A DNA stretch of 16,625 nucleotides, taken from the IMG/VR virus record IMGVR_UViG_2778261459_000008; one strand, given 5' to 3'. Origin of the DNA: a virus. Its lineage: Duplodnaviria; Heunggongvirae; Uroviricota; Caudoviricetes. Shown piece by piece: positions 2,384 to 16,338 of the stretch (the first letter of the stretch is position 1; each line of letters begins with the position of its first letter). The translations under genes were made by a program, and so were the position numbers. Below the pieces are notes generated by a model that did not search any database, had not been told where the DNA came from, and was given only the letters and a program-made list of their open reading frames with translations.

Positions 2384-2406
2384 GGTCACTCCCTTTGTGA
2401 CACCTA

Positions 2407-2445
2407 TAAAAAAGGCGCTTCCCCATGCCGAGTAGCGCCTTTTTA
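2407..2445 (-). terminator. rho-independent terminator in the yhdJ-fis intergenic region (A-run, GC stem, T-run; bidirectional in form)
   Basis: AAAAAAGGCGCT-tccccatgccgagt-AGCGCCTTTTT: stem GGCGCT/AGCGCC flanked by an A-tract and a T-tract. Confidence 0.6.
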
Positions 2446-2468
2446 ATCAAGCATTTAGCTAACCTGAA

Positions 2469-2487
2469 TTAGTTCATGCCGTATTTT
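2469..2487 (-). other. fis: fis 3'-terminal fragment (last codons K-Y-G-M-N-stop only), proposed core of the island attachment site / island-chromosome junction
   Basis: Reverse complement of 2469-2487 is AAAATACGGCATGAACTAA, encoding KYGMN-stop, which matches the Fis C-terminus as I recall it. A TGA occurs in frame immediately upstream and the preceding sequence is not fis-like. Position relative to yhdJ (about 85 bp upstream) matches K-12 synteny. Confidence 0.6.
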
Positions 2488-2670
2488 CAAAACCTACGTT
2501 TTTTACCGTTCGGATATGTTTGCTAATGTTCATCTATGATACTGATATAAAACAATAAAATTGATTTATCGGTTTGCCTTTGTTCATTGCCGTTCATAGA
2601 GTAACATTGATATGTGCAGTCAGTGGTGCAGTCAGTTTGGCGTACCAAATGATATGAACTGAGGTTTTCA

Positions 2671-3894
2671 ATGGCTGGTGGAACGAACAAATTAAGCGAT
2701 ACATCGCTTCGTAAAATGCTGGGAAGGGAGAGCCCCGGAGACAGCTTCTATGCTGATGGCGATGGGCTAAGTGTGAAGGTGTCCAGATCGGGCGTGTTGA
2801 CTTGGTATTTCACTTTCCGCATAGGTGGCCGGGAATCAACATCTCAGCGTATAAAGCTGGGTAATTATCCAGACCTTTCACTCAAAGCAGCTCGTGAGAA
2901 ACGAGAGCAGTGTCGCGCATGGCTCGCAGAGGGAAAGAATCCAAAGCACCAGTTGAGCGTTACGACTCAGGAAACGTTAAAGCCGGTGACAGTCAGGGAT
3001 GCCCTTGAATACTGGATCAGGGAATATGCCACCCATAACCGCGCTAATGTTGAAAAGCACATTGAGCAGCTCAATAAGCATATCTTTCCTTATATAGGTA
3101 CTTATCCGCTTTCTATGTGTGAAACTCGCCACTGGCTGGAATGTTTCGCCAGGGTAAGGAACGAAGCGCCTGTAGCGGCTGGCTATCTTTTGCAGATGTG
3201 TAAGCAAGCACTCAAGTTCTGCCGGGTTCATCGGTATGCGGTGAGTAACGTCCTGGACGATCTGACCATTGACGATGTTGGACGTAAACAGAATAAGCGG
3301 GACAGGGAGCATACCCGGCAAGAACTTGCTGATATATGGCGAGAATGCTCAGGCCTGAAATTTAAGCCCTACTACTCAGCTCTATTACGTCTGCTGGTGG
3401 TGTTTGGCTGCCGAACTCAGGAGCTGAGATTATCTCGCGTAACCGAATGGGATCTAAATGATTGGGTTTGGACGGTACCTAAAGAGCACAGCAAAGGTGG
3501 TGAGAAAATACTACGGCCTATTCCCGTAGATATTCGCCCATTTATCAAACAGCTTTTAGAGCAGCACCAAAGCACAGGGCTATTGCTGGGAGAGATAAAG
3601 AAACCGGAAGCTGTCAGTCAGTGGGGAAGGATGTTGTATAAGCGTCTGGGCCACTCTGAACCGTGGACGCTTCACGATTTACGCCGTACATTTTCCACGA
3701 CTCTGAACAACATGGGAATTGCTCCGCATGTTGTCGAGCAGCTTCTGGGCCATGCGCTGGGCGGTGTCATGTCCGTATATAACCGCAGTCAGTATTTACC
3801 TGAAAAGCTGGATGCACTGAATAAATGGATGCAGAGATTAGATGTTATTACCTCTGATATCTCAAATGTTACTATTCTTGAGGTCGCAAGATGA
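2671..3894 (+). CDS. int: tyrosine site-specific integrase (P4/CP4-57-like phage integrase family)
   Basis: 407-aa ORF; N-terminal DUF4102-like arm-binding region (GLSVKVSRSGVLTWYFTFRIGGRESTSQRIKLGNYPDLSLKAAREKREQCRAWLAEGKNP); C-terminal catalytic signature (HDLRRTFSTTL ... LGHALGGVMSVYNRSQY); SD GAGG 8 nt upstream of the ATG. Confidence 0.9.
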   Translation: MAGGTNKLSDTSLRKMLGRESPGDSFYADGDGLSVKVSRSGVLTWYFTFRIGGRESTSQRIKLGNYPDLSLKAAREKREQCRAWLAEGKNPKHQLSVTTQETLKPVTVRDALEYWIREYATHNRANVEKHIEQLNKHIFPYIGTYPLSMCETRHWLECFARVRNEAPVAAGYLLQMCKQALKFCRVHRYAVSNVLDDLTIDDVGRKQNKRDREHTRQELADIWRECSGLKFKPYYSALLRLLVVFGCRTQELRLSRVTEWDLNDWVWTVPKEHSKGGEKILRPIPVDIRPFIKQLLEQHQSTGLLLGEIKKPEAVSQWGRMLYKRLGHSEPWTLHDLRRTFSTTLNNMGIAPHVVEQLLGHALGGVMSVYNRSQYLPEKLDALNKWMQRLDVITSDISNVTILEVAR

Positions 3895-6603: not shown

Positions 6604-6968
6604 TCAGCAATGTGAAGTTTTACGAGCTGGCTAAGCGCGTTGATCTGCTGGTTGAAAAGGTTTTGCATCTTGAGGCACAGGTTAAGTCACTCACTGATAG
6701 TCAGGGGGGGGAAATCCCTCCGGGTATGACGCCAGTAGCAACACTGGCCGCTGAATACGGTATCTCAACCAATAAGGCTGAGGAACTGGCGAAAAACACA
6801 GGGGTGATGCTGGTTAAGCTGAAATCTGGCGGGTTCGTTGCACCTGATGAAAAGTTCAGGGAAGCGGCGCGTCTGGTGCTGCGCAGCGCTAAGCGCAAAT
6901 ATGGCTCTGCGTACTGGTTCCATCCTCTGATCGGCAAATTCCAGATGAGCGGGGGCATTCCAAAATGA
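6600..6968 (+). CDS. hypothetical protein, 122 aa, translationally coupled to the helicase gene
   Basis: ATG at 6600 with GGGAGG 8 nt upstream; ATGA overlap with the downstream gene at 6965-6968; no recognisable motif. Confidence 0.55.
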   Translation: MISNVKFYELAKRVDLLVEKVLHLEAQVKSLTDSQGGEIPPGMTPVATLAAEYGISTNKAEELAKNTGVMLVKLKSGGFVAPDEKFREAARLVLRSAKRKYGSAYWFHPLIGKFQMSGGIPK

Positions 6969-8329
6969 CGGTACAACTGACAGCTGTAGAAACCGTTTCT
7001 GATGCCCTGTTCACCTGTTCGTATCTGTGGGCGCACGGCAAGCAATACAGTCGCAGCGATTTGGATAAAGCGCTCCACCAGCATAAGGACCCCACTACCC
7101 GTTACGGAAAGCTGGTGGCTCGCCTCAACCAGATAGCAGCAATGCCGTATGAGGAACTCTGTGATGCCGGATATCTCGATACGGACCGCAAACAAATGAT
7201 TACAGCGCGGCGTTCTGTGCTGGTGGAAGAGATAGGCGAAGGGGAAATGAATGCCATGCTGTCTGACGTGCAGCGCATTCACCGGGTCTTCCCTGATGCT
7301 GGTGCAAAGTTCAGGACAAAGCTGCCTCTCTCTCGCGGTTCTGAGGGCTTTGATATCCGTCAGGACTATGTCCTTAAACACTTTCTGCCAGCGCAATCAC
7401 TGTGCAGCATTTACGGTCCCAGCGGTTCGTATAAGAGTTTTCTCGCTGTATCGTGGGCCTGTCACATTGCTGCGGGTCTGCCATGGGCTGGGAAGAAGGT
7501 CACTTCCGGCGCGGTGCTGTATGTGGTTGGTGAGGGGGGCGTAGGCGTTCCCCGGCGTATAAAGGCTTGGGAGCAGGTGCACGGCATACAGGCGGACAAC
7601 CTCTGGCTGGTCAATCGTCCGGTGTTTCCTGTGCGCGAGTCAGAGGTAACGGAAGTGCTTCTGGCTGCCAGACAGATTGAAGCTGAATGTGGTGTGCCGG
7701 TTCGCATGGTGGTGATCGATACGCTGGCCCGTTGTTTTGGCGGTAACGACGAGAACGATGCTCGTGATATGGGGGCATTTATTGAAGGGTGTGACGTTAT
7801 CAAACAGAAAACGGGTGCAACGGTGCTGATAGTTCACCACTCCGGCAAAGATGAAGGGAAAGGCGCTCGCGGTTCCAGTGCTTTCCGCGCTGCGCTTGAT
7901 ACTGAATTTAACGTTAAGCGTGAAGGGGATGGAAAGGCGCTTATTCTGACCTGTACCAAGATGAAAGACGCGGAGGAGCCAGAGCGTAAAGCGTATGACC
8001 TGAGAACGGCAGAGCTTTACACCGATGAAGATGGTGAGCTTGTTTGCTCTCTGGTTGTGCACGATCAGCCGAGAGAGGCTAAAGAGGTTGAGCCTGAACT
8101 GGCCAATGTCTCCCGTCTTAGCGATAACCACCATGCATTATGGCAGGCAGTACGCAGCCGCACAGCTAAGGGGGAGCCATGCACTATCTCCGTCATTAAA
8201 GATGATCTGCGTGCAACACTGGGGACAGATAAAGTGAGAAAGTCATTCTCGCGCTGGCTGGACAAGCTGGAGAGTGAGCAAATTATTCGCATCGAGGGTG
8301 AGAACCTTTACCCGGTAACAGTCGAGTAA
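6965..8329 (+). CDS. replication initiator/helicase, RecA-like AAA_25 (RepA-like) ATPase with predicted C-terminal winged-helix DNA-binding domain
   Basis: Walker A (IYGPSGSYKSF), Walker B-like (VRMVVIDTLARCFGG), HHSGKD motif; C-terminal about 90 aa basic and helical; immediately followed by iterons. Confidence 0.8.
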   Translation: MTVQLTAVETVSDALFTCSYLWAHGKQYSRSDLDKALHQHKDPTTRYGKLVARLNQIAAMPYEELCDAGYLDTDRKQMITARRSVLVEEIGEGEMNAMLSDVQRIHRVFPDAGAKFRTKLPLSRGSEGFDIRQDYVLKHFLPAQSLCSIYGPSGSYKSFLAVSWACHIAAGLPWAGKKVTSGAVLYVVGEGGVGVPRRIKAWEQVHGIQADNLWLVNRPVFPVRESEVTEVLLAARQIEAECGVPVRMVVIDTLARCFGGNDENDARDMGAFIEGCDVIKQKTGATVLIVHHSGKDEGKGARGSSAFRAALDTEFNVKREGDGKALILTCTKMKDAEEPERKAYDLRTAELYTDEDGELVCSLVVHDQPREAKEVEPELANVSRLSDNHHALWQAVRSRTAKGEPCTISVIKDDLRATLGTDKVRKSFSRWLDKLESEQIIRIEGENLYPVTVE

Positions 8330-8820: not shown

Positions 8821-10065
8821 TCAATAATTAAAGTGACTTTCAACTGAAAGTTGTTTGCAGCCCAATAATTTTAAAGCTTTTCGAATGTAATATAAAGCAG
8901 CGGTATTGTCGATAATGTAGCGGAAGGCTTCATTTTTATCTTGTTGTGCATCTCTTAAATTTCTTTCAAATTCTCTTTCATAATCTTCTGCGTAATATTG
9001 ATTGGATTGTCGGCCCATAATAATCAATGTGGTTAAATCTGCTAATTCTTCCTCTGAAAAGAGAGGTAGGTAAGTAGTGGTGATGCGCATTTTTAACCGT
9101 AGGTAGTCTAAAAAATCTTCTGCTCTGATATCGGATAAACTAATTCCTGAATCCTGTAGTGGGTCCAGAAATACGTTATTTTTTTTCATTACGTCTTTTA
9201 TATGTAGTGCGTACCAAGCTTTTTTAAAACGCAATAGTGTATTTTTCCCGCTATGTTTAAGTGGAAATTCAACGCCAATTAAAGATGATAGGTATCTATT
9301 TACAACAATTTTGTCGATTGCTTTTATAAGTTGTTTGTTGCTATTGAGATTAAATTTTTTCTTGATGAATTCCTTTTTTTTCACTGTAAGTGTAGTTACC
9401 CATTCATTTTTATTACCTAGAGCTTTTGAAAGCTTGATTAGATCACGGCGTGAAAATTTATCGGTATACGTACCTGTTTTATACTCATCTTTCAGATTTA
9501 GAGTGAGCTTAATTATTTCTCGCAAACCTTCCGTGAGCTTTTTGAAATAAACAACAAATCTTACAAGGTTAATGATCGGTGTTTTTTCCAAATGTGTCGC
9601 TCCGACATTGGACTCAGGGTATCTAAAAGTTTGTGCTGTGTCGTCTATAGCCACAAAGTCTAATATATAAGGCTCGATTTTTTTTGTAATGTGAAATAGT
9701 CGTATATCTGTCCTCTCAGCGACATCAATCGTGGCATCCCATAGTTTCTTGATGCTGTGGATTTTTGTCACATCAGGAACTGATATCGCCAATCCTCGGA
9801 GATCTGCCATGTCAATGAGGATAGTCTTTAGAGAAAGCTCAATTCCGTGCCTGGCAGAGTAGGCAATCGGATAAACAAGTAAATCAACTTCTCCTCTCTT
9901 GTTATTTTTGTATATATAGTCAGTAAGTATCTCTGGGGTTCTAAGGTAACCTTCAGCATAAGTTAATGAGTCAGGGAAACCATTCGTTCCGACGCAAGCA
10001 TTCAGCCAATCAAATCGACCATTGCCCAAACCAAAGGTGTTATTAAAGATTGTTTCTTTTTCCAT
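8821..10065 (-). CDS. hypothetical protein, 414 aa, AT-rich cargo gene on the opposite strand to the island backbone; candidate accessory/anti-phage function
   Basis: Uninterrupted minus-strand ORF with ATG at 10065 and AAGGA 8 nt upstream; markedly AT-rich versus flanking replication and capsid genes; no Walker, HNH, DPPY or other catalytic motif recognised. Confidence 0.7.
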   Translation of the reverse strand: MEKETIFNNTFGLGNGRFDWLNACVGTNGFPDSLTYAEGYLRTPEILTDYIYKNNKRGEVDLLVYPIAYSARHGIELSLKTILIDMADLRGLAISVPDVTKIHSIKKLWDATIDVAERTDIRLFHITKKIEPYILDFVAIDDTAQTFRYPESNVGATHLEKTPIINLVRFVVYFKKLTEGLREIIKLTLNLKDEYKTGTYTDKFSRRDLIKLSKALGNKNEWVTTLTVKKKEFIKKKFNLNSNKQLIKAIDKIVVNRYLSSLIGVEFPLKHSGKNTLLRFKKAWYALHIKDVMKKNNVFLDPLQDSGISLSDIRAEDFLDYLRLKMRITTTYLPLFSEEELADLTTLIIMGRQSNQYYAEDYEREFERNLRDAQQDKNEAFRYIIDNTAALYYIRKALKLLGCKQLSVESHFNY

Positions 10066-10312: not shown

Positions 10313-11482
10313 ATGAAGAAATTAATCGAACTCCGCCAGCAAAAAACCGCCCTGAAAAACCAGATGCGATCCCTGCTGGAAAAAGCCGACAGTGAAAACC
10401 GCAGTCTGACCGATGACGAGGGCAAACAGTTTGATGAACTGCGTGCAAAAGCTGATTCCCTCGATACAGACATTTCCCGCCTCGAGTCTGTGGCTGATGA
10501 AGAACGCAGCAAGCCAGGAACGGGCATCCAGAAATTATCATCTGATGAATTGCGTAACTACATCGTAACCGGAGATGTGCGATCTCTGTCCACCAGCACT
10601 GACAGCGGCAGGGATGGCGGATATACCGTAATTCCTGAGCTTGATCGCGAAGTCATGCGCCAGCTACAGGATGACAGTGTTATGCGCGTGATCGCGACCG
10701 TGAAGACTGCAAAATCAAATGAGTTTCAGAAACTGGTTTCCACTGGCGGCGCAACTGTAGGACGAGGCACAGAAGGCAGCGCACGCAGTGAAACCAACAC
10801 CCCGAAAATTGAACGCGTAACCATCAAGCTGAATCCGATCTACGCCTACCCGAAAACCACGCAGGAAATCCTGGATTTTTCAGAGGTGGATATTCTGGGC
10901 TGGTTATCCTCCGAAATTGCCGACACGTTCGCCAGCACCGAAGAGGATGATTTTGTTAATGGCGACGGTAACGGCAAGCCGAAAGGCTTCATGGCTTACA
11001 CCCGTGCGGCGACCAGTGACAAAACCCGCGCTTTTGGCACCATTGAAAAAATGGTAGCGGCAAGTGGAACCGCCATTACAGCGGACGAACTGATCGACAT
11101 TCTCTACAAGCTGAAAGCGAAATACCGCAAAAATGCCGTCTGGGTGATGAACTCGGGCACGGCAGGGACACTACAGAAGCTGAAAAATGAGAACGGCGAT
11201 TATATCTGGCGCGACAGCCTTAAAGAAGGTGCGCCGGATATGTTGCTTGGTCGTCCTGTTTACTGCCTGGAGTCCATGCCGGACATCGGCGCAGGAAAAG
11301 CACCGCTAGCGGTTGGCGATTTCAGTCGTGGTTATTTCATCGTTGATCATGTAACAGGGATTCGCACCCGACCGGACAACATTACTGAACCCGGATTCTA
11401 CAAGGTCCACACGGATAAATATCTGGGCGGTGGTGTGGTGGATTCAAACGCCATCAAAATTCTGGAAATGAAAGCTGGCTAG
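10313..11482 (+). CDS. major capsid protein, HK97 fold, with N-terminal coiled-coil delta (scaffold) domain
   Basis: 389 aa; N-terminal about 70 aa is a charged coiled coil (LIELRQQKTALKNQMRSLLEKADSENRSLTDDEGKQFDELRAKADSLD); FVNGDGNGKPKGF motif typical of HK97-family capsids; strong terminator immediately downstream. Confidence 0.85.
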   Translation: MKKLIELRQQKTALKNQMRSLLEKADSENRSLTDDEGKQFDELRAKADSLDTDISRLESVADEERSKPGTGIQKLSSDELRNYIVTGDVRSLSTSTDSGRDGGYTVIPELDREVMRQLQDDSVMRVIATVKTAKSNEFQKLVSTGGATVGRGTEGSARSETNTPKIERVTIKLNPIYAYPKTTQEILDFSEVDILGWLSSEIADTFASTEEDDFVNGDGNGKPKGFMAYTRAATSDKTRAFGTIEKMVAASGTAITADELIDILYKLKAKYRKNAVWVMNSGTAGTLQKLKNENGDYIWRDSLKEGAPDMLLGRPVYCLESMPDIGAGKAPLAVGDFSRGYFIVDHVTGIRTRPDNITEPGFYKVHTDKYLGGGVVDSNAIKILEMKAG

Positions 11483-11536: not shown

Positions 11537-12097
11537 ATGAAAAACACCGATTTTGAAATCCGCACATCTGAACTGACCGCCAGCAATAAAAAGCTGGTGG
11601 GGTATGCCGTTCGCTGGAACAGCCTTTCAGAAATTATCTGGGACGAATTCCGCGAACAGTTCACGCCGGGGGCTTTTGCTGACTATCTGGCGGCGGGTAA
11701 TGATGTGCGCTGCCTGTATGAGCATGACTATACCCAACTGCTGGGGCGCACCAAATCCGGCACTCTGGTACTGACTGAGGATAACACCGGGTTACGTTTT
11801 GAGCTGACACCGCCGGATACCCAGCTTGGAAAAGATGTGCTTACGCTGGTGGAGCGTGGCGACATTACAGGAATGAGCTTTGGTTTTCGCGCATTATGCG
11901 AGGAGTGGAGTATCGCGCAAAAACCGTATCTGCGTACCGTAACCGCCGCTGAACTCCGTGAAATCACAATAACGTCGATGCCTGCTTATCCAGAATCTGG
12001 CGTGGAGATTGCCCGCCGTTCGTTGTTTGCACAGCACCCTGAATTACGTCCGACAGGAAATAATCGTCATCGTTGGTCTGAGTTGGCGGGGTTGTGA
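11537..12097 (+). CDS. prohead maturation protease (HK97 family, S78/U35-like)
   Basis: 186 aa; N-terminal ...KKLVGYAVRWNSLSEII...FTPGAF pattern typical of HK97 prohead proteases; GGAG 7 nt upstream of the ATG. Confidence 0.8.
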   Translation: MKNTDFEIRTSELTASNKKLVGYAVRWNSLSEIIWDEFREQFTPGAFADYLAAGNDVRCLYEHDYTQLLGRTKSGTLVLTEDNTGLRFELTPPDTQLGKDVLTLVERGDITGMSFGFRALCEEWSIAQKPYLRTVTAAELREITITSMPAYPESGVEIARRSLFAQHPELRPTGNNRHRWSELAGL

Positions 12098-12098
12098 T

Positions 12099-13313
12099 AT
12101 GTGGTGGCCTTTTAGTCGTAAAAAAAGCGAGCAGCGTAACCTGTCCATTGATGATTTTCTGGCGCTGTCCGGCGTACCGAATACCGGATCCGGAGAATAT
12201 GTTTCTGCCGGGACGGCTGAATCATTGCCTGCAGTGATGAACGCGGTTTCTGTCATCGCTGAGGCGGTGGCCACGATGCCGTGTTATCTGTATCTGGTAC
12301 GTAATGACAAGGGCAGGGAGGCGCGGGAATGGCTGGACAGTCACCCGGTAGATATTCTGCTGAATGAGCAGCCTAATTCGTGCCAGACACCTTACCAGTT
12401 TAAACGCACAATGATGCGTCACTGCCTGCTGAACGGTAACGCCTATGCGGTTATTGAGTGGGGGCGGGACGGGCAGCCCAAATCACTTCATCCTTATGCA
12501 CCGGGTTGTGTTGTACCGGAACGCACAGGCGCACACAAATACCGATATACCATCACCGAACCCTATACAGGAACGGTGCGCACGTATTTACAGGAAGAAG
12601 TTCTGCATCTCCGCTATGCCTCGGATGATGGCTTTCTGGGGCGCTCCCCCGTCACGATTTGCCGTGAGGCACTTGGGCTTGGCCTTGCTCAACAGCGCCA
12701 CGGAGCCAGCATTATGAAAGATGGCATGATGGCGGCAGGGATTATCACGTCAGGCGAATGGCTGGACGGCGTGAAAGGTAAACAGGCATTAGATGCTCTG
12801 GAACGCTACAAGGGGGCGAAAAATGCCGGAAAAACGCCAATCCTTGAAGGGGGCATGGATTACAAGCAACTGGGAATGAGTAACCAGGATGCGGAATGGC
12901 TGGCCTCCCGTCGCTTCTCCATTGAAGACATCGCCCGCATGTTCAACGTATCGCCTATTTTTCTGCAGGAATACAGCAACAGCACCTACAGCAATTTCAG
13001 CGAGGCAAGCCGCGCGTTTCTGACCATGACAATGCGCCCATGGCTGGCGAACTTCGAACAGCAAATCAAGGCCGCTTTGCTGGTGGCTTCTCCCGTACCT
13101 GGTACCCGTTATCTGGTTGAGTTTGATTCAGCCGATTTATTACGCGCCACACCCACCGAACGTTATGCCACGTATGAGAAAGGGATTAAGAACGGGATCA
13201 TGAATCCGAACGAAGCCCGTGAGCGTGAGGGTATGCCGCCGCGTGAAGGTGGTGACGAGTTCAGCCAGGCATGGAAGCAGACTGTGGAAATTAAAGGTGA
13301 AAAAGATGAGTGA
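12099..13313 (+). CDS. portal protein (HK97 family)
   Basis: 404 aa from the ATG at 12099 (2 nt after the protease stop); conserved portal block RRFSIEDIARMFNVSPIFL; the ORF track's upstream extension to 12009 overlaps the protease gene and is unlikely. Confidence 0.85.
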   Translation: MWWPFSRKKSEQRNLSIDDFLALSGVPNTGSGEYVSAGTAESLPAVMNAVSVIAEAVATMPCYLYLVRNDKGREAREWLDSHPVDILLNEQPNSCQTPYQFKRTMMRHCLLNGNAYAVIEWGRDGQPKSLHPYAPGCVVPERTGAHKYRYTITEPYTGTVRTYLQEEVLHLRYASDDGFLGRSPVTICREALGLGLAQQRHGASIMKDGMMAAGIITSGEWLDGVKGKQALDALERYKGAKNAGKTPILEGGMDYKQLGMSNQDAEWLASRRFSIEDIARMFNVSPIFLQEYSNSTYSNFSEASRAFLTMTMRPWLANFEQQIKAALLVASPVPGTRYLVEFDSADLLRATPTERYATYEKGIKNGIMNPNEAREREGMPPREGGDEFSQAWKQTVEIKGEKDE

Positions 13314-13608
13314 ATCCAGAATTACGCTTAATGAAGTAATGGCCCATCTTCGCCTTGATGATGATTTTTATGGTGAGGTTGAACTTCTGCAAATATATAC
13401 CGATGCGGCGCTGGAAGCCTGCCAGAAGCATATCGGGAAACGTTTTGAAGACGGCCTGGAATTTACCCCGGCAATACGTGTTGGTTGCCTGATGTACATC
13501 GCTTTTCTGTACGAGAACCGGGAAGCGGTTTCACCAGTTGAGCACTCGGAACTGCCTATGGCTATTTCTGCGCTCTGGTCGGTTTATCGTGATGTGGGGG
13601 TGTACTGA
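13306..13608 (+). CDS. head-tail connector / DNA-packaging protein (gp6-like)
   Basis: 100 aa from the ATG at 13306, overlapping the portal stop; N-terminal ITLNEVMAHLRLDDDFYGEVELLQIYTDAALEA pattern typical of gp6-like connectors. Confidence 0.7.
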   Translation: MSESRITLNEVMAHLRLDDDFYGEVELLQIYTDAALEACQKHIGKRFEDGLEFTPAIRVGCLMYIAFLYENREAVSPVEHSELPMAISALWSVYRDVGVY

Positions 13609-14048
13609 TGCCGTGGCAACCATTAAGGCGATGCACTGAGCCGGGCTGTAATAAGCGCGTGAAGTCCGGCAAGTGTGAAGAGCACAGGCGGGCTGCATGG
13701 CGTGCAGAGGATGCCAGACGGGGACACCGCCGCGCACGTGGGTATTCCCGACAGTGGGACAAATACCGCGCCCTGTACCTGAGCAAAAACCCGTTATGCG
13801 TGCGTTGTCTGGCTAAGGGTATTTATACACCAGCTCTTGTGGTGGATCACATCATTCCCATCAATGGCGGCGGTGATGTTCTCTTCTGGCCTGAGTGGAA
13901 TCACCAGGCATTGTGCCAGACGTGCCACAACCGTAAGACGACACGGGAAGATCCAGCCACGAAAGCAAACCGTAAAGCGGGCATGTATCGCGAGCAGGAA
14001 GAACGGGCGGCACACCGTAACGACTGGATGTATGGCGATGATGACTGA
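13608..14048 (+). CDS. HNH endonuclease (packaging-associated)
   Basis: 146 aa; CxxC ... DHIIP ... H ... CQTCHNRK zinc-finger HNH signature; start overlaps the connector stop (TGATG). Confidence 0.85.
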   Translation: MPWQPLRRCTEPGCNKRVKSGKCEEHRRAAWRAEDARRGHRRARGYSRQWDKYRALYLSKNPLCVRCLAKGIYTPALVVDHIIPINGGGDVLFWPEWNHQALCQTCHNRKTTREDPATKANRKAGMYREQEERAAHRNDWMYGDDD

Positions 14049-14217
14049 ACAGGAGCAAACCAGGCTGATACGTGGACTGATAAGGCAGCGTGACACATGG
14101 AAGACACAGGAGACAGAGCACAAAGCCAACAGGACAGGGCGCACAAAACGCACCACAGCGAAGCGATTAACCGACCGTGACCGCGAGGTCATGGAATGTT
14201 TTCGCAATCGCTGGTGA
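14041..14217 (+). CDS. possible small basic protein, 58 aa, overlapping the HNH stop; uncertain
   Basis: ATG at 14041 in an ATGA-type overlap with the HNH stop; product MTEQEQTRLIRGLIRQRDTWKTQETEHKANRTGRTKRTTAKRLTDRDREVMECFRNRW; no clear SD. Confidence 0.3.
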   Translation: MTEQEQTRLIRGLIRQRDTWKTQETEHKANRTGRTKRTTAKRLTDRDREVMECFRNRW

Positions 14218-14336
14218 GGCCGTCAGAGGGGGTGGGGGTGGTTTTCAGGACGAAACCGTCCCTGCCGGACACCGACCGCCCCCTCAAATTTTTGTGCACG
14301 GTAATTTTTTTGAAAATAATTGGGCGAAAAAAGAAC

Positions 14337-14693
14337 ATGGCAAGACCACCAAAAGCCCCCGCTTACCTGGATGAAATCGCGGTCAGGCAGTGGAAGGAAA
14401 AATCGCGCCAGCTTTCCGGGCGGGAAGACCTTACCCCCGCCGACTGGAGCAATCTGGAACTGTATTGTGTTAACTACTCCATATACCGCAAAGCCGTCGA
14501 AGACCTTGCGACGCGCGGGTTCAGCATTGTTAACAGTCAGGGCAGCGAGAGCAGAAACCCCGCACTGAGCGCAAAGGCTGACGCAGAAAGAATAATGATC
14601 AAAATGGCTTCTTTGCTGGGTTTTGACCCGGTAAGCCGTCGCAGAAATCCACCGGAAACAGAGGAAGAGGACGAACTTGACCGCCTGGCATGA
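14337..14693 (+). CDS. terminase small subunit (P27-family-like)
   Basis: 118 aa from the ATG at 14337 (MARPPKAPAYLDEIAVRQWKE...), an N-terminus typical of P27-type TerS; lies directly upstream of and overlaps TerL. Confidence 0.75.
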   Translation: MARPPKAPAYLDEIAVRQWKEKSRQLSGREDLTPADWSNLELYCVNYSIYRKAVEDLATRGFSIVNSQGSESRNPALSAKADAERIMIKMASLLGFDPVSRRRNPPETEEEDELDRLA

Positions 14694-16338
14694 GTACGCA
14701 GAAGGCGTAAAAAACGGCAAAATTACGGCCTGTAAACGACTGAAACAGGCCGTTAAACGGTATTTTTCTGACCTTGAAAACTCCCTTTACACGTTCGATC
14801 CGGAGGTCGTGGAGCGGTTTATTGCCTTTTCCCGGGTGTGTCCGCACGTAAAAGGCGCAATGCGCGGTAGTCCCATTGAACTGGAGCCGTGGCAGCAGTT
14901 CGCCTTTGCCTGCATCCTGGGCTTTAAGGTTAAGGCCACCGGACGGCGCAAATACACCAGCGCATTCATTGAAGTACCGCGAAAAAATGCCAAATCCACG
15001 GTCGCCGCTATCCTGGCTAACTGGTTTCTGGTTATGGAAAACGGGCAGCAGGATATTTACACCGCCGCCGTGAGTCGTGATCAGGCGCGGATCGTGTTTG
15101 ATGATGCGCGTCAGATGTGCCTTTTATCCCGACCGTTACGAAAGCGGGTAAATATTCAGGCGCACAAGGTGATACACCCGAAAACCAACAGCCTGTTAAA
15201 GCCACTGGCAGCAAAAGCGGCAACCATTGAGGGGACAAACCCGAGTCTTGCCATTGTGGATGAATATCACCTGCACCCAGACAACGGGGTTTATTCCGCA
15301 CTTGAGCTGGGGATGGGGGCGCGTCCGGAGGGGCTGTTATTTGCCATCACCACATCGGGGAGCAACGTTGTTTCAGCCTGTAAACAACACTATGACTATT
15401 GCTGTCAGATACTGGATGGTGAAGAGATGAACGAATCCATGTTCGTTCTGATTTACGAGCTGGATGATGAAAGCGAGGTTGACGATCCGGCGATGTGGAT
15501 AAAGGCGAATCCAAATATCGATGTTTCCGTCGATCGTGAAAAACTGGCCTCAACCATCCAGAAAGCGCGGGGTATTCCGTCGCAGTGGGTGGAAATGCTC
15601 ACCAAGCGATTCAATATCTGGTGTCAGGGGGCTACGCCGTGGATGGGTAACGGTGCATGGGCGGAGTGCGCCGGAACGTTCGCGGAGGCGGATTTATACG
15701 GGCAGGAGTGCTACGCGGGGCTGGACTTATCATCAACCAGCGATATTTCCAGCGTGTGCTATGCCTTTCCGGTCGGTAAAAAGATTATGCTGGTTTCCCG
15801 TCACTATCTGCCGGAATTTCAGCTACAGAACCCCGCCAATAAAAACCGCGCCATCTATCGCCAGTGGGTAAAGGCGGGCTGGATACGCACAACACCGGGT
15901 GACTGCATTGATTATGACCGTATCCGTGATGACATCATGGCGGATGCAGAGAATTTCAATATCAGGCTGGTGGGCTTCGATACATGGAACGCCACGCACC
16001 TGAGGACGCAGCTACAGGGGGCAGGATTTGAGGTGGAGCCGTTCCCGCAAACATACCTTCGTTTCAGTCCGGCGGCGAAATCGTTCGAAGTTTTTGTTAA
16101 CCGGAAGGTGATTGTGCATCGTGGTGATCCGGTGCTGGCCTGGTCAATGAGTAATGTTGTGATGCAGAGTGACGCGAACGCCAATATCAAGCCGAACAAG
16201 AAAAAATCATCCAACAAGATAGACCCGAGCGTTGCGGCGCTGATGGCGTTTGGCACATTCCAGGCAGAGCATGAGGAATTTGCATTTGATATGAGCGACA
16301 GCCACAAAGAGCGACTTGCGGCGTTTGATGGGGTATGA
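14677..16338 (+). CDS. terminase large subunit (ATPase/nuclease)
   Basis: 553 aa; apparent TTG start at 14677 with AAGAGG 6 nt upstream (no in-frame ATG/GTG until about residue 61); Walker A-like VPRKNAKST; acidic nuclease-domain motifs; 16-nt overlap with TerS. Confidence 0.85.
   Translation: MTAWHEYAEGVKNGKITACKRLKQAVKRYFSDLENSLYTFDPEVVERFIAFSRVCPHVKGAMRGSPIELEPWQQFAFACILGFKVKATGRRKYTSAFIEVPRKNAKSTVAAILANWFLVMENGQQDIYTAAVSRDQARIVFDDARQMCLLSRPLRKRVNIQAHKVIHPKTNSLLKPLAAKAATIEGTNPSLAIVDEYHLHPDNGVYSALELGMGARPEGLLFAITTSGSNVVSACKQHYDYCCQILDGEEMNESMFVLIYELDDESEVDDPAMWIKANPNIDVSVDREKLASTIQKARGIPSQWVEMLTKRFNIWCQGATPWMGNGAWAECAGTFAEADLYGQECYAGLDLSSTSDISSVCYAFPVGKKIMLVSRHYLPEFQLQNPANKNRAIYRQWVKAGWIRTTPGDCIDYDRIRDDIMADAENFNIRLVGFDTWNATHLRTQLQGAGFEVEPFPQTYLRFSPAAKSFEVFVNRKVIVHRGDPVLAWSMSNVVMQSDANANIKPNKKKSSNKIDPSVAALMAFGTFQAEHEEFAFDMSDSHKERLAAFDGV

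What the first reader, a model, noticed from the sequence alone, without database searches (positions are those of the whole stretch)
14218..14336. Structured non-coding gap between HNH and TerS: candidate cos/packaging recognition site
GAGGGGGTGG (14228-14237) can pair with CCGCCCCCTC (14276-14285), enclosing an inner hairpin GACG-aaac-CGTC, and is followed by T-rich/A-rich tracts just before terS. An HNH gene immediately upstream of TerS/TerL is characteristic of cos-type HK97-like packaging, where the cos site usually lies next to terS.
Basis: partly seen in the sequence, partly recalled or inferred. Interest (0 to 1): 0.4.

Follow-up and report, generated by a model that had tools for sequence, protein, structure and literature searches.

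The report
Cos packaging site of a phage satellite
The 119-base gap between the HNH and small-terminase genes is very probably the cos site where this E. coli capsid-forming phage satellite cuts its DNA for packaging.

Summary
The window is an E. coli yhdJ–fis region carrying a capsid-forming PICI (cf-PICI).

**Observation.** It is not unusual: 28% of dinucleotide shuffles contain an equal one. It shows no compensatory changes in 111 relatives, and the inner hairpin is not conserved.

**Interpretation.** The cos assignment is supported.
- A 15,518-bp IMG/VR contig of a Klebsiella-type relative starts at CTCAAATTTTT (= window 14283).
- The same contig ends 10 nt before that point. This matches a trimmed 10-nt 3' overhang, as in HK97.
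- The particle-derived record LR881103 (KpCIDSM30104) breaks in the same gap.
- Edwardsiella phage EPP-1, whose record was corrected with PhageTerm, starts in the same register.
- Three non-coding blocks are more conserved (82-89%) than the flanking genes (69-76%), across Enterobacterales and Pasteurellaceae.
- The layout matches HK97 cos: G-run at −55..−42, C-rich overhang at −10..−1, T7 tract at +23..+29.

**Predicted features.** The cohesive end is CGACCGCCCC (14273-14282).

**Verdict.** This is a new member of a known kind, of modest interest.

The parts
13608..14048 (+). HNH endonuclease gene, the accessory nuclease of the packaging machine
   Evidence: Pfam HNH PF01844, E = 8.8e-10. PDB hit 5H0M 'HNH endonuclease', E = 9e-16. 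RefSeq annotation of an identical copy.
14032..14217 (+). Small conserved ORF (61 aa, hypothetical) whose stop codon borders the gap
   Evidence: Annotated in RefSeq copies. No Pfam hit.
14228..14254 (.). Upstream conserved block GGGGGTGGGGGTGGTTTTCAGGACGAA. Candidate termination (cosQ-like) or nuclease-positioning element.
   Evidence: 87% mean identity to 10 divergent relatives, against 69-76% for the flanking genes. Present in Enterobacterales and Pasteurellaceae. HK97 has a G-run at -56..-43 and EPP-1 has one in the equivalent place. The function is inferred.
14255..14269 (.).
   Evidence: 53% identity to relatives, but no length change in the aligned relatives. The distance from CAGGAC to CTCAAA counts as 31 nt in both the E. 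coli and Klebsiella types.
14273..14282 (+). Predicted 10-nt 3' cohesive end CGACCGCCCC. Bottom-strand nick at 14272|14273, top-strand nick at 14282|14283.
   Evidence: IMG/VR contig 3300022664_000095 ends at ...GCAAGGCAC and starts at CTCAAATTTTT. Integrated relatives have exactly CACCCGCCCC between these points. Contig base 1 aligns to window 14283. The position in this window rests on homology.
14283..14293 (+). Invariant CTCAAATTTTT, the first bases of the packaged left end and the nick-site context
   Evidence: At least 97% conserved in nearly all columns across 111 relatives. It is the start of the linear contig. EPP-1 starts with CCCCAATTTTT in the same register.
14294..14319 (.). Conserved GTGCACGGTAATTTTTTTGAAAATAA with T7 at +23..+29; candidate TerS binding site (cosB-like)
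   Evidence: 82% identity to divergent relatives. The HK97 TerS site is +15..+29 with an essential A/T tract at +24..+29 (PMC11331095; HK97 sequence). The assignment is by analogy only.
14337..14693 (+). terS, P27-family small terminase
   Evidence: Pfam Terminase_4 PF05119, E = 1.6e-23.
14677..16338 (+). terL, HK97-type large terminase (ATPase plus nuclease)
   Evidence: Pfam PF03354 and PF20441. The only PDB hit is HK97 TerL 6Z6D, E = 2.3e-43 over the full length.

Best explanation
The gap is the cos site of a capsid-forming phage-inducible chromosomal island (cf-PICI).

Proposed mechanism. After induction, excision and replication, the island's own TerS binds just downstream of the cut. The candidate site is the GCACGG-AATTTTTTT block at about 14296-14311. 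TerS recruits the HK97-type TerL. TerL, together with the HNH endonuclease, makes two nicks 10 bp apart: bottom strand at 14272|14273 and top strand at 14282|14283. This leaves 10-nt 3' cohesive ends (CGACCGCCCC). DNA is then packaged rightwards, terS first, into the island's own small capsids until the next cos. The G-run block 42-55 bp upstream is a second conserved element, possibly used at termination.

What is shown. The ends of packaged or linear DNA of relatives map inside the gap. The missing stretch is 10 nt. Three non-coding blocks are conserved. TerL is an HK97 homologue.

What is inferred. The same positions apply in this window. The overhang is 3'. It is not known which protein cuts which strand. 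The TerS site and the role of the G-run are assigned by analogy.
For: **The element is a cf-PICI.**
- Gene order is int, replication genes, capsid, protease, portal, connector, HNH, terS, terL. There are no tail or lysis genes. It sits between yhdJ and fis.
- This architecture is described in bioRxiv 10.1101/2022.09.08.507074.

**Physical ends in relatives.**
- IMG/VR contig 3300022664_000095 is 15,518 bp. Its gene order is permuted: terS…int…HNH. It is colinear with LR881103.
- It starts at CTCAAATTTTTACGCACGG… and ends at …CAGGACAAAACCCAAGCCGCAAGGCAC.
- Integrated relatives carry exactly 10 nt, CACCCGCCCC, between these two points.
- LR881103 (vB_KppS-Ant) came from particles of K. pneumoniae DSM 30104 sequenced with Nextera XT. 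Relative to the integrated copy in ATCC 13883, it lacks 69 nt spanning the same site.
- He et al. report cohesive cos ends for KpCIDSM30104 DNA.
- Edwardsiella phage EPP-1 has HNH at its right end and a P27-family TerS at its left end. Its record was corrected with PhageTerm. It starts with CCCCAATTTTT, so its first base lies 4 nt before AATTTTT. That is the same register as the cf-PICI contig.

**Conservation.**
- The three blocks are 87%, 89% and 82% identical to divergent relatives. HNH is 69% and terS 76%. The spacer (53%) and the RBS region (28%) drift.
- The cut-block motif recurs in 20 species of Enterobacterales and Pasteurellaceae.

**Match to HK97 cos (PMC11331095).**
- G-run: -56..-43 in HK97, -55..-42 here.
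- 10-nt C-rich overhang: CGCCGCCAAA in HK97, CGACCGCCCC here.
- T7 tract: +24..+30 in HK97, +23..+29 here.
- terS ATG: +50 in HK97, +55 here.
- TerL is a full-length HK97 TerL homologue.
Against: - No data come from particles of this very element. The cut positions are transferred from relatives that are about 77% identical over terS–terL and 83-92% over the cut block.
- Only one assembly gives nucleotide resolution. A scan of metagenome contigs found no further contig ending at the site. The nature of sample 3300022664 (virome or not) is unknown.
- The 3' polarity is deduced from the loss of 10 nt rather than their duplication. That assumes a standard end-repair library.
- TerS is not detectably related to HK97 gp1 (BLASTP E = 4; gp1 has no Pfam hit). 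The TerS-site analogy is therefore weak.
Confidence: 0.85

Rival explanations
1. The stem-loop acts in RNA, as an intrinsic terminator, attenuator or processing site. It would separate the capsid–HNH transcript from terS–terL or tune terS translation.
For: A GC-rich stem of -45 kcal/mol is predicted in RNA, followed by AAAUUUUU. The gap lies within a co-directional operon.
Against: - The U-run is not adjacent to the stem, and the terminator scan does not call it.
- The fold z-score is only -2.
- There are no compensatory changes in 111 relatives. Pair 3 is a C·C mismatch in 74 of 111, and the inner hairpin is not conserved.
- There is no Rfam match.
- The conservation pattern is of sequence blocks at fixed spacing, not of pairing.
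Confidence: 0.05
2. The conserved A/T-rich blocks are a promoter/operator for terS–terL, and packaging ends lie elsewhere or packaging is headful.
For: A/T-rich conserved DNA lies directly upstream of terS.
Against: - The scan finds no sigma-70-like promoter on the + strand of the gap.
- The linear assemblies of two relatives break exactly here.
- Cohesive ends are reported for KpCIDSM30104.
- An HNH gene next to terS/terL is the hallmark of cos, not headful, systems (Kala et al. 2014, as cited).
- A promoter could still coexist with cos.
Confidence: 0.07
3. The G-run / C-run inverted repeat extrudes as a cruciform or hairpin in DNA, and that structure is what the HNH nuclease or TerL recognises.
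For: Both arms are conserved and mostly complementary across the family. HK97 and EPP-1 also pair a G-run with a C-rich end. Own knowledge: some HNH-related nucleases cut branched DNA.
Against: - As DNA the stem has a T·G and, in most relatives, a C·C mismatch, plus a 40-nt loop.
- Equal repeats arise in 28% of shuffles.
- In Xenorhabdus and Photorhabdus copies the two runs appear, by eye, to pair in a shifted register, as expected from mere G-run against C-run composition.
Confidence: 0.03

Closest known systems
cos site of coliphage HK97 (HNH gp74 / TerS gp1 / TerL gp2)
   Same: - It lies between the HNH gene and terS.
- It has a 10-nt 3' overhang that is C-rich on the top strand.
- The G-run lies about 43-56 bp upstream of the cut.
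- The T7 tract sits at +23/24 to +29/30.
- terS starts 50-55 bp after the cut.
- TerL is homologous (6Z6D, E = 2e-43).

   Different: - TerS belongs to the P27 family (PF05119) and shows no detectable similarity to HK97 gp1.
- The sequences flanking the nicks differ: CTCAAATTTTT here, GTTTGAATTT in HK97.
- The genome is a roughly 15-kb satellite, not a 39.7-kb phage.
cos region of cf-PICIs KpCIDSM30104 (= LR881103 vB_KppS-Ant) and EcCIEDL933
   Same: Same element family and gene order. The orthologous gap has the same three conserved blocks. O157:H7 copies are about 85% identical over the HNH–terS query (window 13600-14700), and Klebsiella TerS is 85% identical. Cohesive ends are reported for KpCIDSM30104.
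   Different: The 10-nt end differs: CACCCGCCCC in Klebsiella and CGAACGCCTC in O157, against CGACCGCCCC here. In the papers held in the library I found no nucleotide-level map of the cf-PICI cos site.
Edwardsiella phage EPP-1 and similar siphophages with HNH + P27-family TerS
   Same: The G-run, the C-rich end (…CTGCCCGCCTC) and a left end starting 4 nt before AATTTTT. The TerS is of the P27 family and the HNH gene is at the right end. Termini were set with PhageTerm.
   Different: It is a full 38.6-kb phage. TerS is about 39% identical. The sequence after the T-run differs.
Phage lambda cos (cosQ–cosN–cosB)
   Same: The logic is the same: a nicking site flanked downstream by a small-terminase binding region next to the terminase genes, and upstream by a separate element used at termination.
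   Different: Own knowledge: lambda makes 12-nt 5' overhangs, needs no HNH protein, and uses R-sites plus IHF. There is no sequence similarity.

Membership tests
HK97-type (HNH-dependent) cos site | Lies between the hnh gene and terS–terL, at the junction of the packaged genome's two ends | tested here: met
   The gene order HNH – small ORF – gap – terS – terL. HK97 has HNH at its right end and terS 49 nt from its left end.
HK97-type (HNH-dependent) cos site | Packaged DNA has unique, fixed ends at the site | tested here: met
   Met for relatives only. The contig 3300022664_000095 ends and the LR881103 ends (against the integrated copy) fall in the orthologous gap. Not testable for this island without particle DNA.
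HK97-type (HNH-dependent) cos site | 10-nt 3' protruding cohesive ends | tested here: inconclusive
   Exactly 10 nt are absent between the two ends of the linear contig. The length fits. The 3' polarity is inferred from loss rather than duplication and is not shown chemically.
HK97-type (HNH-dependent) cos site | Cognate HK97-like TerL nuclease and an HNH endonuclease encoded next to it | tested here: met
   TerL against 6Z6D, E = 2.3e-43. Pfam TerL_ATPase and TerL_nuclease, and HNH.
HK97-type (HNH-dependent) cos site | TerS binding site with an essential A/T tract 15-29 bp downstream of the cut | tested here: inconclusive
   A conserved T7 tract lies at +23..+29. However, TerS is not homologous in sequence to HK97 gp1. 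Binding is not testable here.
Capsid-forming PICI (cf-PICI) | A 10-18 kb island with int, a replication module, capsid–protease–portal–connector–HNH–terS–terL, and no tail or lysis genes | tested here: met
   Criteria as listed in bioRxiv 10.1101/2025.02.11.637232.
Intrinsic terminator / structured RNA element | A stem immediately followed by a U-run, with pairing maintained by covariation, or a match to a curated family | tested here: not met
   Not called by the terminator scan. No compensatory changes, and the inner hairpin is lost in relatives. No Rfam hit.

The most novel reading that the evidence does not exclude
The conserved G-run block at -55..-42 is shared by cf-PICIs, HK97 and EPP-1, yet no function for it is mentioned in the passages of the HK97 packaging papers retrieved here. 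It could be a general second recognition element of HNH-dependent cos sites, for example the docking site that positions the HNH nuclease or TerL for the second nick at termination. Its inverted relation to the C-rich cohesive end would then reflect a two-fold symmetric protein contact. The lineage-specific 10-mer overhang, together with the TerS block, would set packaging specificity between satellites and helpers.
Probability: 0.2. Interest if true: 0.55.

Novelty: new member of a known kind. Interest (0 to 1): 0.3.

Why it matters
cf-PICIs package only their own DNA into their own capsids and move between species. The cis-acting site that confers this specificity is the handle needed for several things:
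- building packageable plasmids;
- testing satellite/helper discrimination;
- recognising intact versus dead islands in genomes.

A nucleotide-level prediction now exists for the cohesive end and two flanking blocks, conserved from E. coli to Pasteurella. It turns 'cos is somewhere near terS' into a directly testable map. It also points to a G-run element shared with HK97 whose role is unknown. Conceptually it is what a specialist would expect.

Tried and rejected
- **Megablast against phage records.** The region found nothing. Only the protein-level search found relatives.
- **RNA structure or terminator.** Rejected on the terminator scan, covariation counts, shuffles and Rfam.
- **An alternative conserved small hairpin in the spacer** (GTCC/GGAC, 14258-14270). 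It is not maintained in relatives.
- **Metagenome-contig scan for more contigs starting at CTCAAATTTTT.** None of the 80 contigs listed (100 matched) starts there.
- **IMG/VR loci that seemed to end in the gap** (L104, L174). These are storage-chunk boundaries inside large contigs, not contig ends. L066 starts at the stop codon of the small ORF and contains the whole gap, so it is not a cos end.
- **HK97 TerS homology as a basis for the TerS site.** Rejected at the sequence level.
- **My first guess for the cut** (after CTCAAA, by eye from HK97 AAA|GTT). The contig ends corrected this to before CTCAAA.

Full report
**Context**

The window is E. coli chromosome between acrS/yhdJ and fis. It carries a roughly 14.5-kb island. 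The genes are:
- a tyrosine integrase (2671-3894);
- a replication module;
- an HK97-fold capsid gene (10313-11482);
- a prohead protease (11537-12097);
- a portal gene (12009-13313);
- a head-tail connector;
- an HNH endonuclease (13608-14048);
- a small ORF (14032-14217);
- the 119-nt gap;
- a P27-family terS (14337-14693);
- terL (14677-16338).

An identical packaging module is annotated this way in E. coli EA2. The query window 13600-14700 (HNH to terS) matches 515 of 5,426 complete E. coli genomes, including O157:H7 copies at about 85% identity.

The gene order, and the absence of tail and lysis genes, define a capsid-forming PICI (cf-PICI). The prototype, EcCIEDL933, was described by Alqurainy et al. 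(bioRxiv 10.1101/2022.09.08.507074).

**Checking the observation**

The inverted repeat is real, but its left arm is at 14226-14235, not 14228-14237. The right arm is at 14276-14285, and there is one T·G. The inner GGACG/CGTCC hairpin and the T/A tracts are also present.

The structure is not statistically remarkable:
- The fold z-scores are about -2.
- Because the gap holds a G-run and a C-run, 563 of 2000 dinucleotide shuffles contain an equally good repeat. So do 32 of 276 real tiles of the window.

I collected 111 distinct versions of the gap from E. coli genomes and IMG/VR. Both arms are nearly invariant, so there is no covariation. The third pair is a C·C mismatch in 74 of 111, and the inner hairpin is not maintained. 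Nothing in Rfam matches, and the terminator scan does not call the stem.

**What the gap is**

Three lines of evidence place physical DNA ends here.

*1. A linear IMG/VR contig.* Contig 3300022664_000095 is 15,518 bp and is a complete relative.
- Its gene order is that of an excised molecule: terS, terL, att, int, replication genes, capsid … HNH. It is colinear with LR881103.
- It begins with CTCAAATTTTTACGCACGG… and ends with …TTTTCAGGACAAAACCCAAGCCGCAAGGCAC.
- Integrated relatives of the same type have exactly CACCCGCCCC between those two points.
- A circular or concatemeric template would give overlapping contig ends. A clean 10-nt loss is what end-repair does to 10-nt 3' overhangs.
- That is the overhang length of HK97 (PMC11331095 and PMC9410871).
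- BLAST puts contig base 1 at window 14283.

*2. The GenBank record LR881103 (vB_KppS-Ant).* It was assembled from particle DNA of K. pneumoniae DSM 30104 using a Nextera XT library (PMC8006926).
- Own knowledge: tagmentation libraries under-sample the extremities of linear DNA.
- The record ends at …TTTTCAGGAC and starts at ACGAAAAGG….
- The integrated copy in K. pneumoniae ATCC 13883 has 69 further nucleotides between these points. Own knowledge: this is the same type strain. The extra stretch spans the same site.
- By strain of origin and gene content this record appears to be KpCIDSM30104. He et al. report that its packaged DNA forms concatemers through cohesive cos ends.

*3. Edwardsiella phage EPP-1.* It is a 38.6-kb phage with HNH at its right end and a P27-family TerS at its left end.
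- Its record was corrected with PhageTerm.
- It ends with …GAGGGTAGGGGGTGGG…CTGCCCGCCTC and starts with CCCCAATTTTT.
- Its first base therefore lies four bases before AATTTTT, the same register as the cf-PICI contig.

**Conservation**

Mean identity of the window to ten divergent relatives:

| Segment | Coordinates | Identity |
|---|---|---|
| HNH | 13608-14037 | 69% |
| G-run block | 14228-14254 | 87% |
| Spacer | 14255-14269 | 53% |
| Cut block | 14270-14293 | 89% |
| TerS-site candidate | 14294-14319 | 82% |
| RBS region | 14320-14336 | 28% |
| terS | 14337-14693 | 76% |

The spacer keeps a constant length. A search with the cut-block pattern matches 20 species representatives. They include Klebsiella, Enterobacter, Citrobacter, Kluyvera, Kosakonia, Pantoea, Rahnella, Xenorhabdus, Photorhabdus, Haemophilus and Avibacterium. 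The Pasteurella element Pmp8 has the same layout.

Within the cut block, the 10-mer between the invariant AC and CTCAAATTTTT is the most variable part. This fits a cohesive end whose sequence matters less than its flanks.

**Comparison with HK97**

Positions are counted from the HK97 record ends.

| Feature | HK97 | This window |
|---|---|---|
| G-run | -56..-43 | -55..-42 |
| 10-nt end (-10..-1) | CGCCGCCAAA | CGACCGCCCC |
| T7 tract | +24..+30 | +23..+29 |
| terS ATG | +50 | +55 |

In HK97 the T7 tract lies inside the mapped TerS site at +15..+29.

TerL is a full-length HK97 TerL homologue, and 6Z6D is its only PDB hit (E = 2.3e-43). TerS is not detectably related to HK97 gp1. Assigning 14294-14319 as the TerS site therefore rests on position and conservation only.

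**Mechanism proposed**

TerS binds the +12..+37 block and recruits TerL. TerL and HNH nick at 14272|14273 (bottom strand) and 14282|14283 (top strand). DNA is packaged rightwards from terS into the island's own capsids until the next cos. The G-run block may act at termination.

- Shown: the end positions in relatives, the conservation of the blocks, and TerL homology.
- Inferred: the same positions in this island, the 3' polarity, the division of labour between the nucleases, and the roles of the two flanking blocks.

Its right arm (14276-14285) overlaps the cohesive end and the top-strand nick, and its left arm is the G-run.

**Novelty**

cos-type, HNH-dependent packaging of cf-PICIs is already stated in the literature. 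The location next to terS is what HK97 predicts. In the papers available I found no nucleotide-level map of a cf-PICI cos site. The predicted ends and blocks are therefore a useful but incremental addition: a new member of a known kind.

Noticed in passing
L087 (LR881103.1, whole record); L357:3680-3880: The GenBank record 'Escherichia phage vB_KppS-Ant' is described in its paper as a filamentous ssDNA prophage and carries a 'tape measure' annotation. By gene content it is a cf-PICI of K. pneumoniae DSM 30104, evidently KpCIDSM30104. Relative to the integrated copy, the record lacks 69 nt at its ends.
   Followed up: partly
window 14273-14282 and orthologous positions in L343-L362: The predicted 10-nt cohesive end is the most variable part of the cut block across genera: CGACCGCCCC, CACCCGCCCC, CGCCTGCCCC, CGACCCCCTC, CGATGCTCCC and others. 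The flanking AC and CTCAAATTTTT are invariant. Lineages may therefore have mutually non-annealing ends.
   Followed up: partly
window 14284-14294; L339:635-647: The IHF core consensus TCAANNNNTTR overlaps the predicted left end (TCAAATTTTTG). Pasteurella Pmp8 has a perfect WATCAANNNNTTR (AATCAAATTTTTA). A host bending protein may take part, as at lambda cosB.
   Followed up: no
window 2400-2489: This stretch upstream of int is 84% identical to a stretch between terL and int in the excised/linear relatives. It probably marks the att region and the left boundary of the island.
   Followed up: no
window 6965-8329 and 8821-10065 (- strand): The replication/accessory part differs from the EA2 copy, whose HNH–terS stretch (window 13600-14700) is 100% identical. 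Here there is an AAA_25 protein and a 414-aa minus-strand ORF with a weak DUF3775 hit. EA2 is annotated with a DNA primase family protein. The island appears modular or mosaic.
   Followed up: no
PQ569648.1 90644-90967 (hit H33): The 106.5-kb 'Klebsiella phage P12620-1' record holds an unannotated TerS 82% identical to this one. A cf-PICI may have been co-assembled with, or inserted in, a phage record.
   Followed up: no
window 14175-14194: A terminator-like hairpin, CCGTGACCGCGAGGTCATGG followed by AATGTTTT, lies inside the 3' end of the small ORF. Its sequence is conserved among the E. coli copies. That is probably coding constraint on the conserved C-terminus (…ECFRNRW).
   Followed up: no
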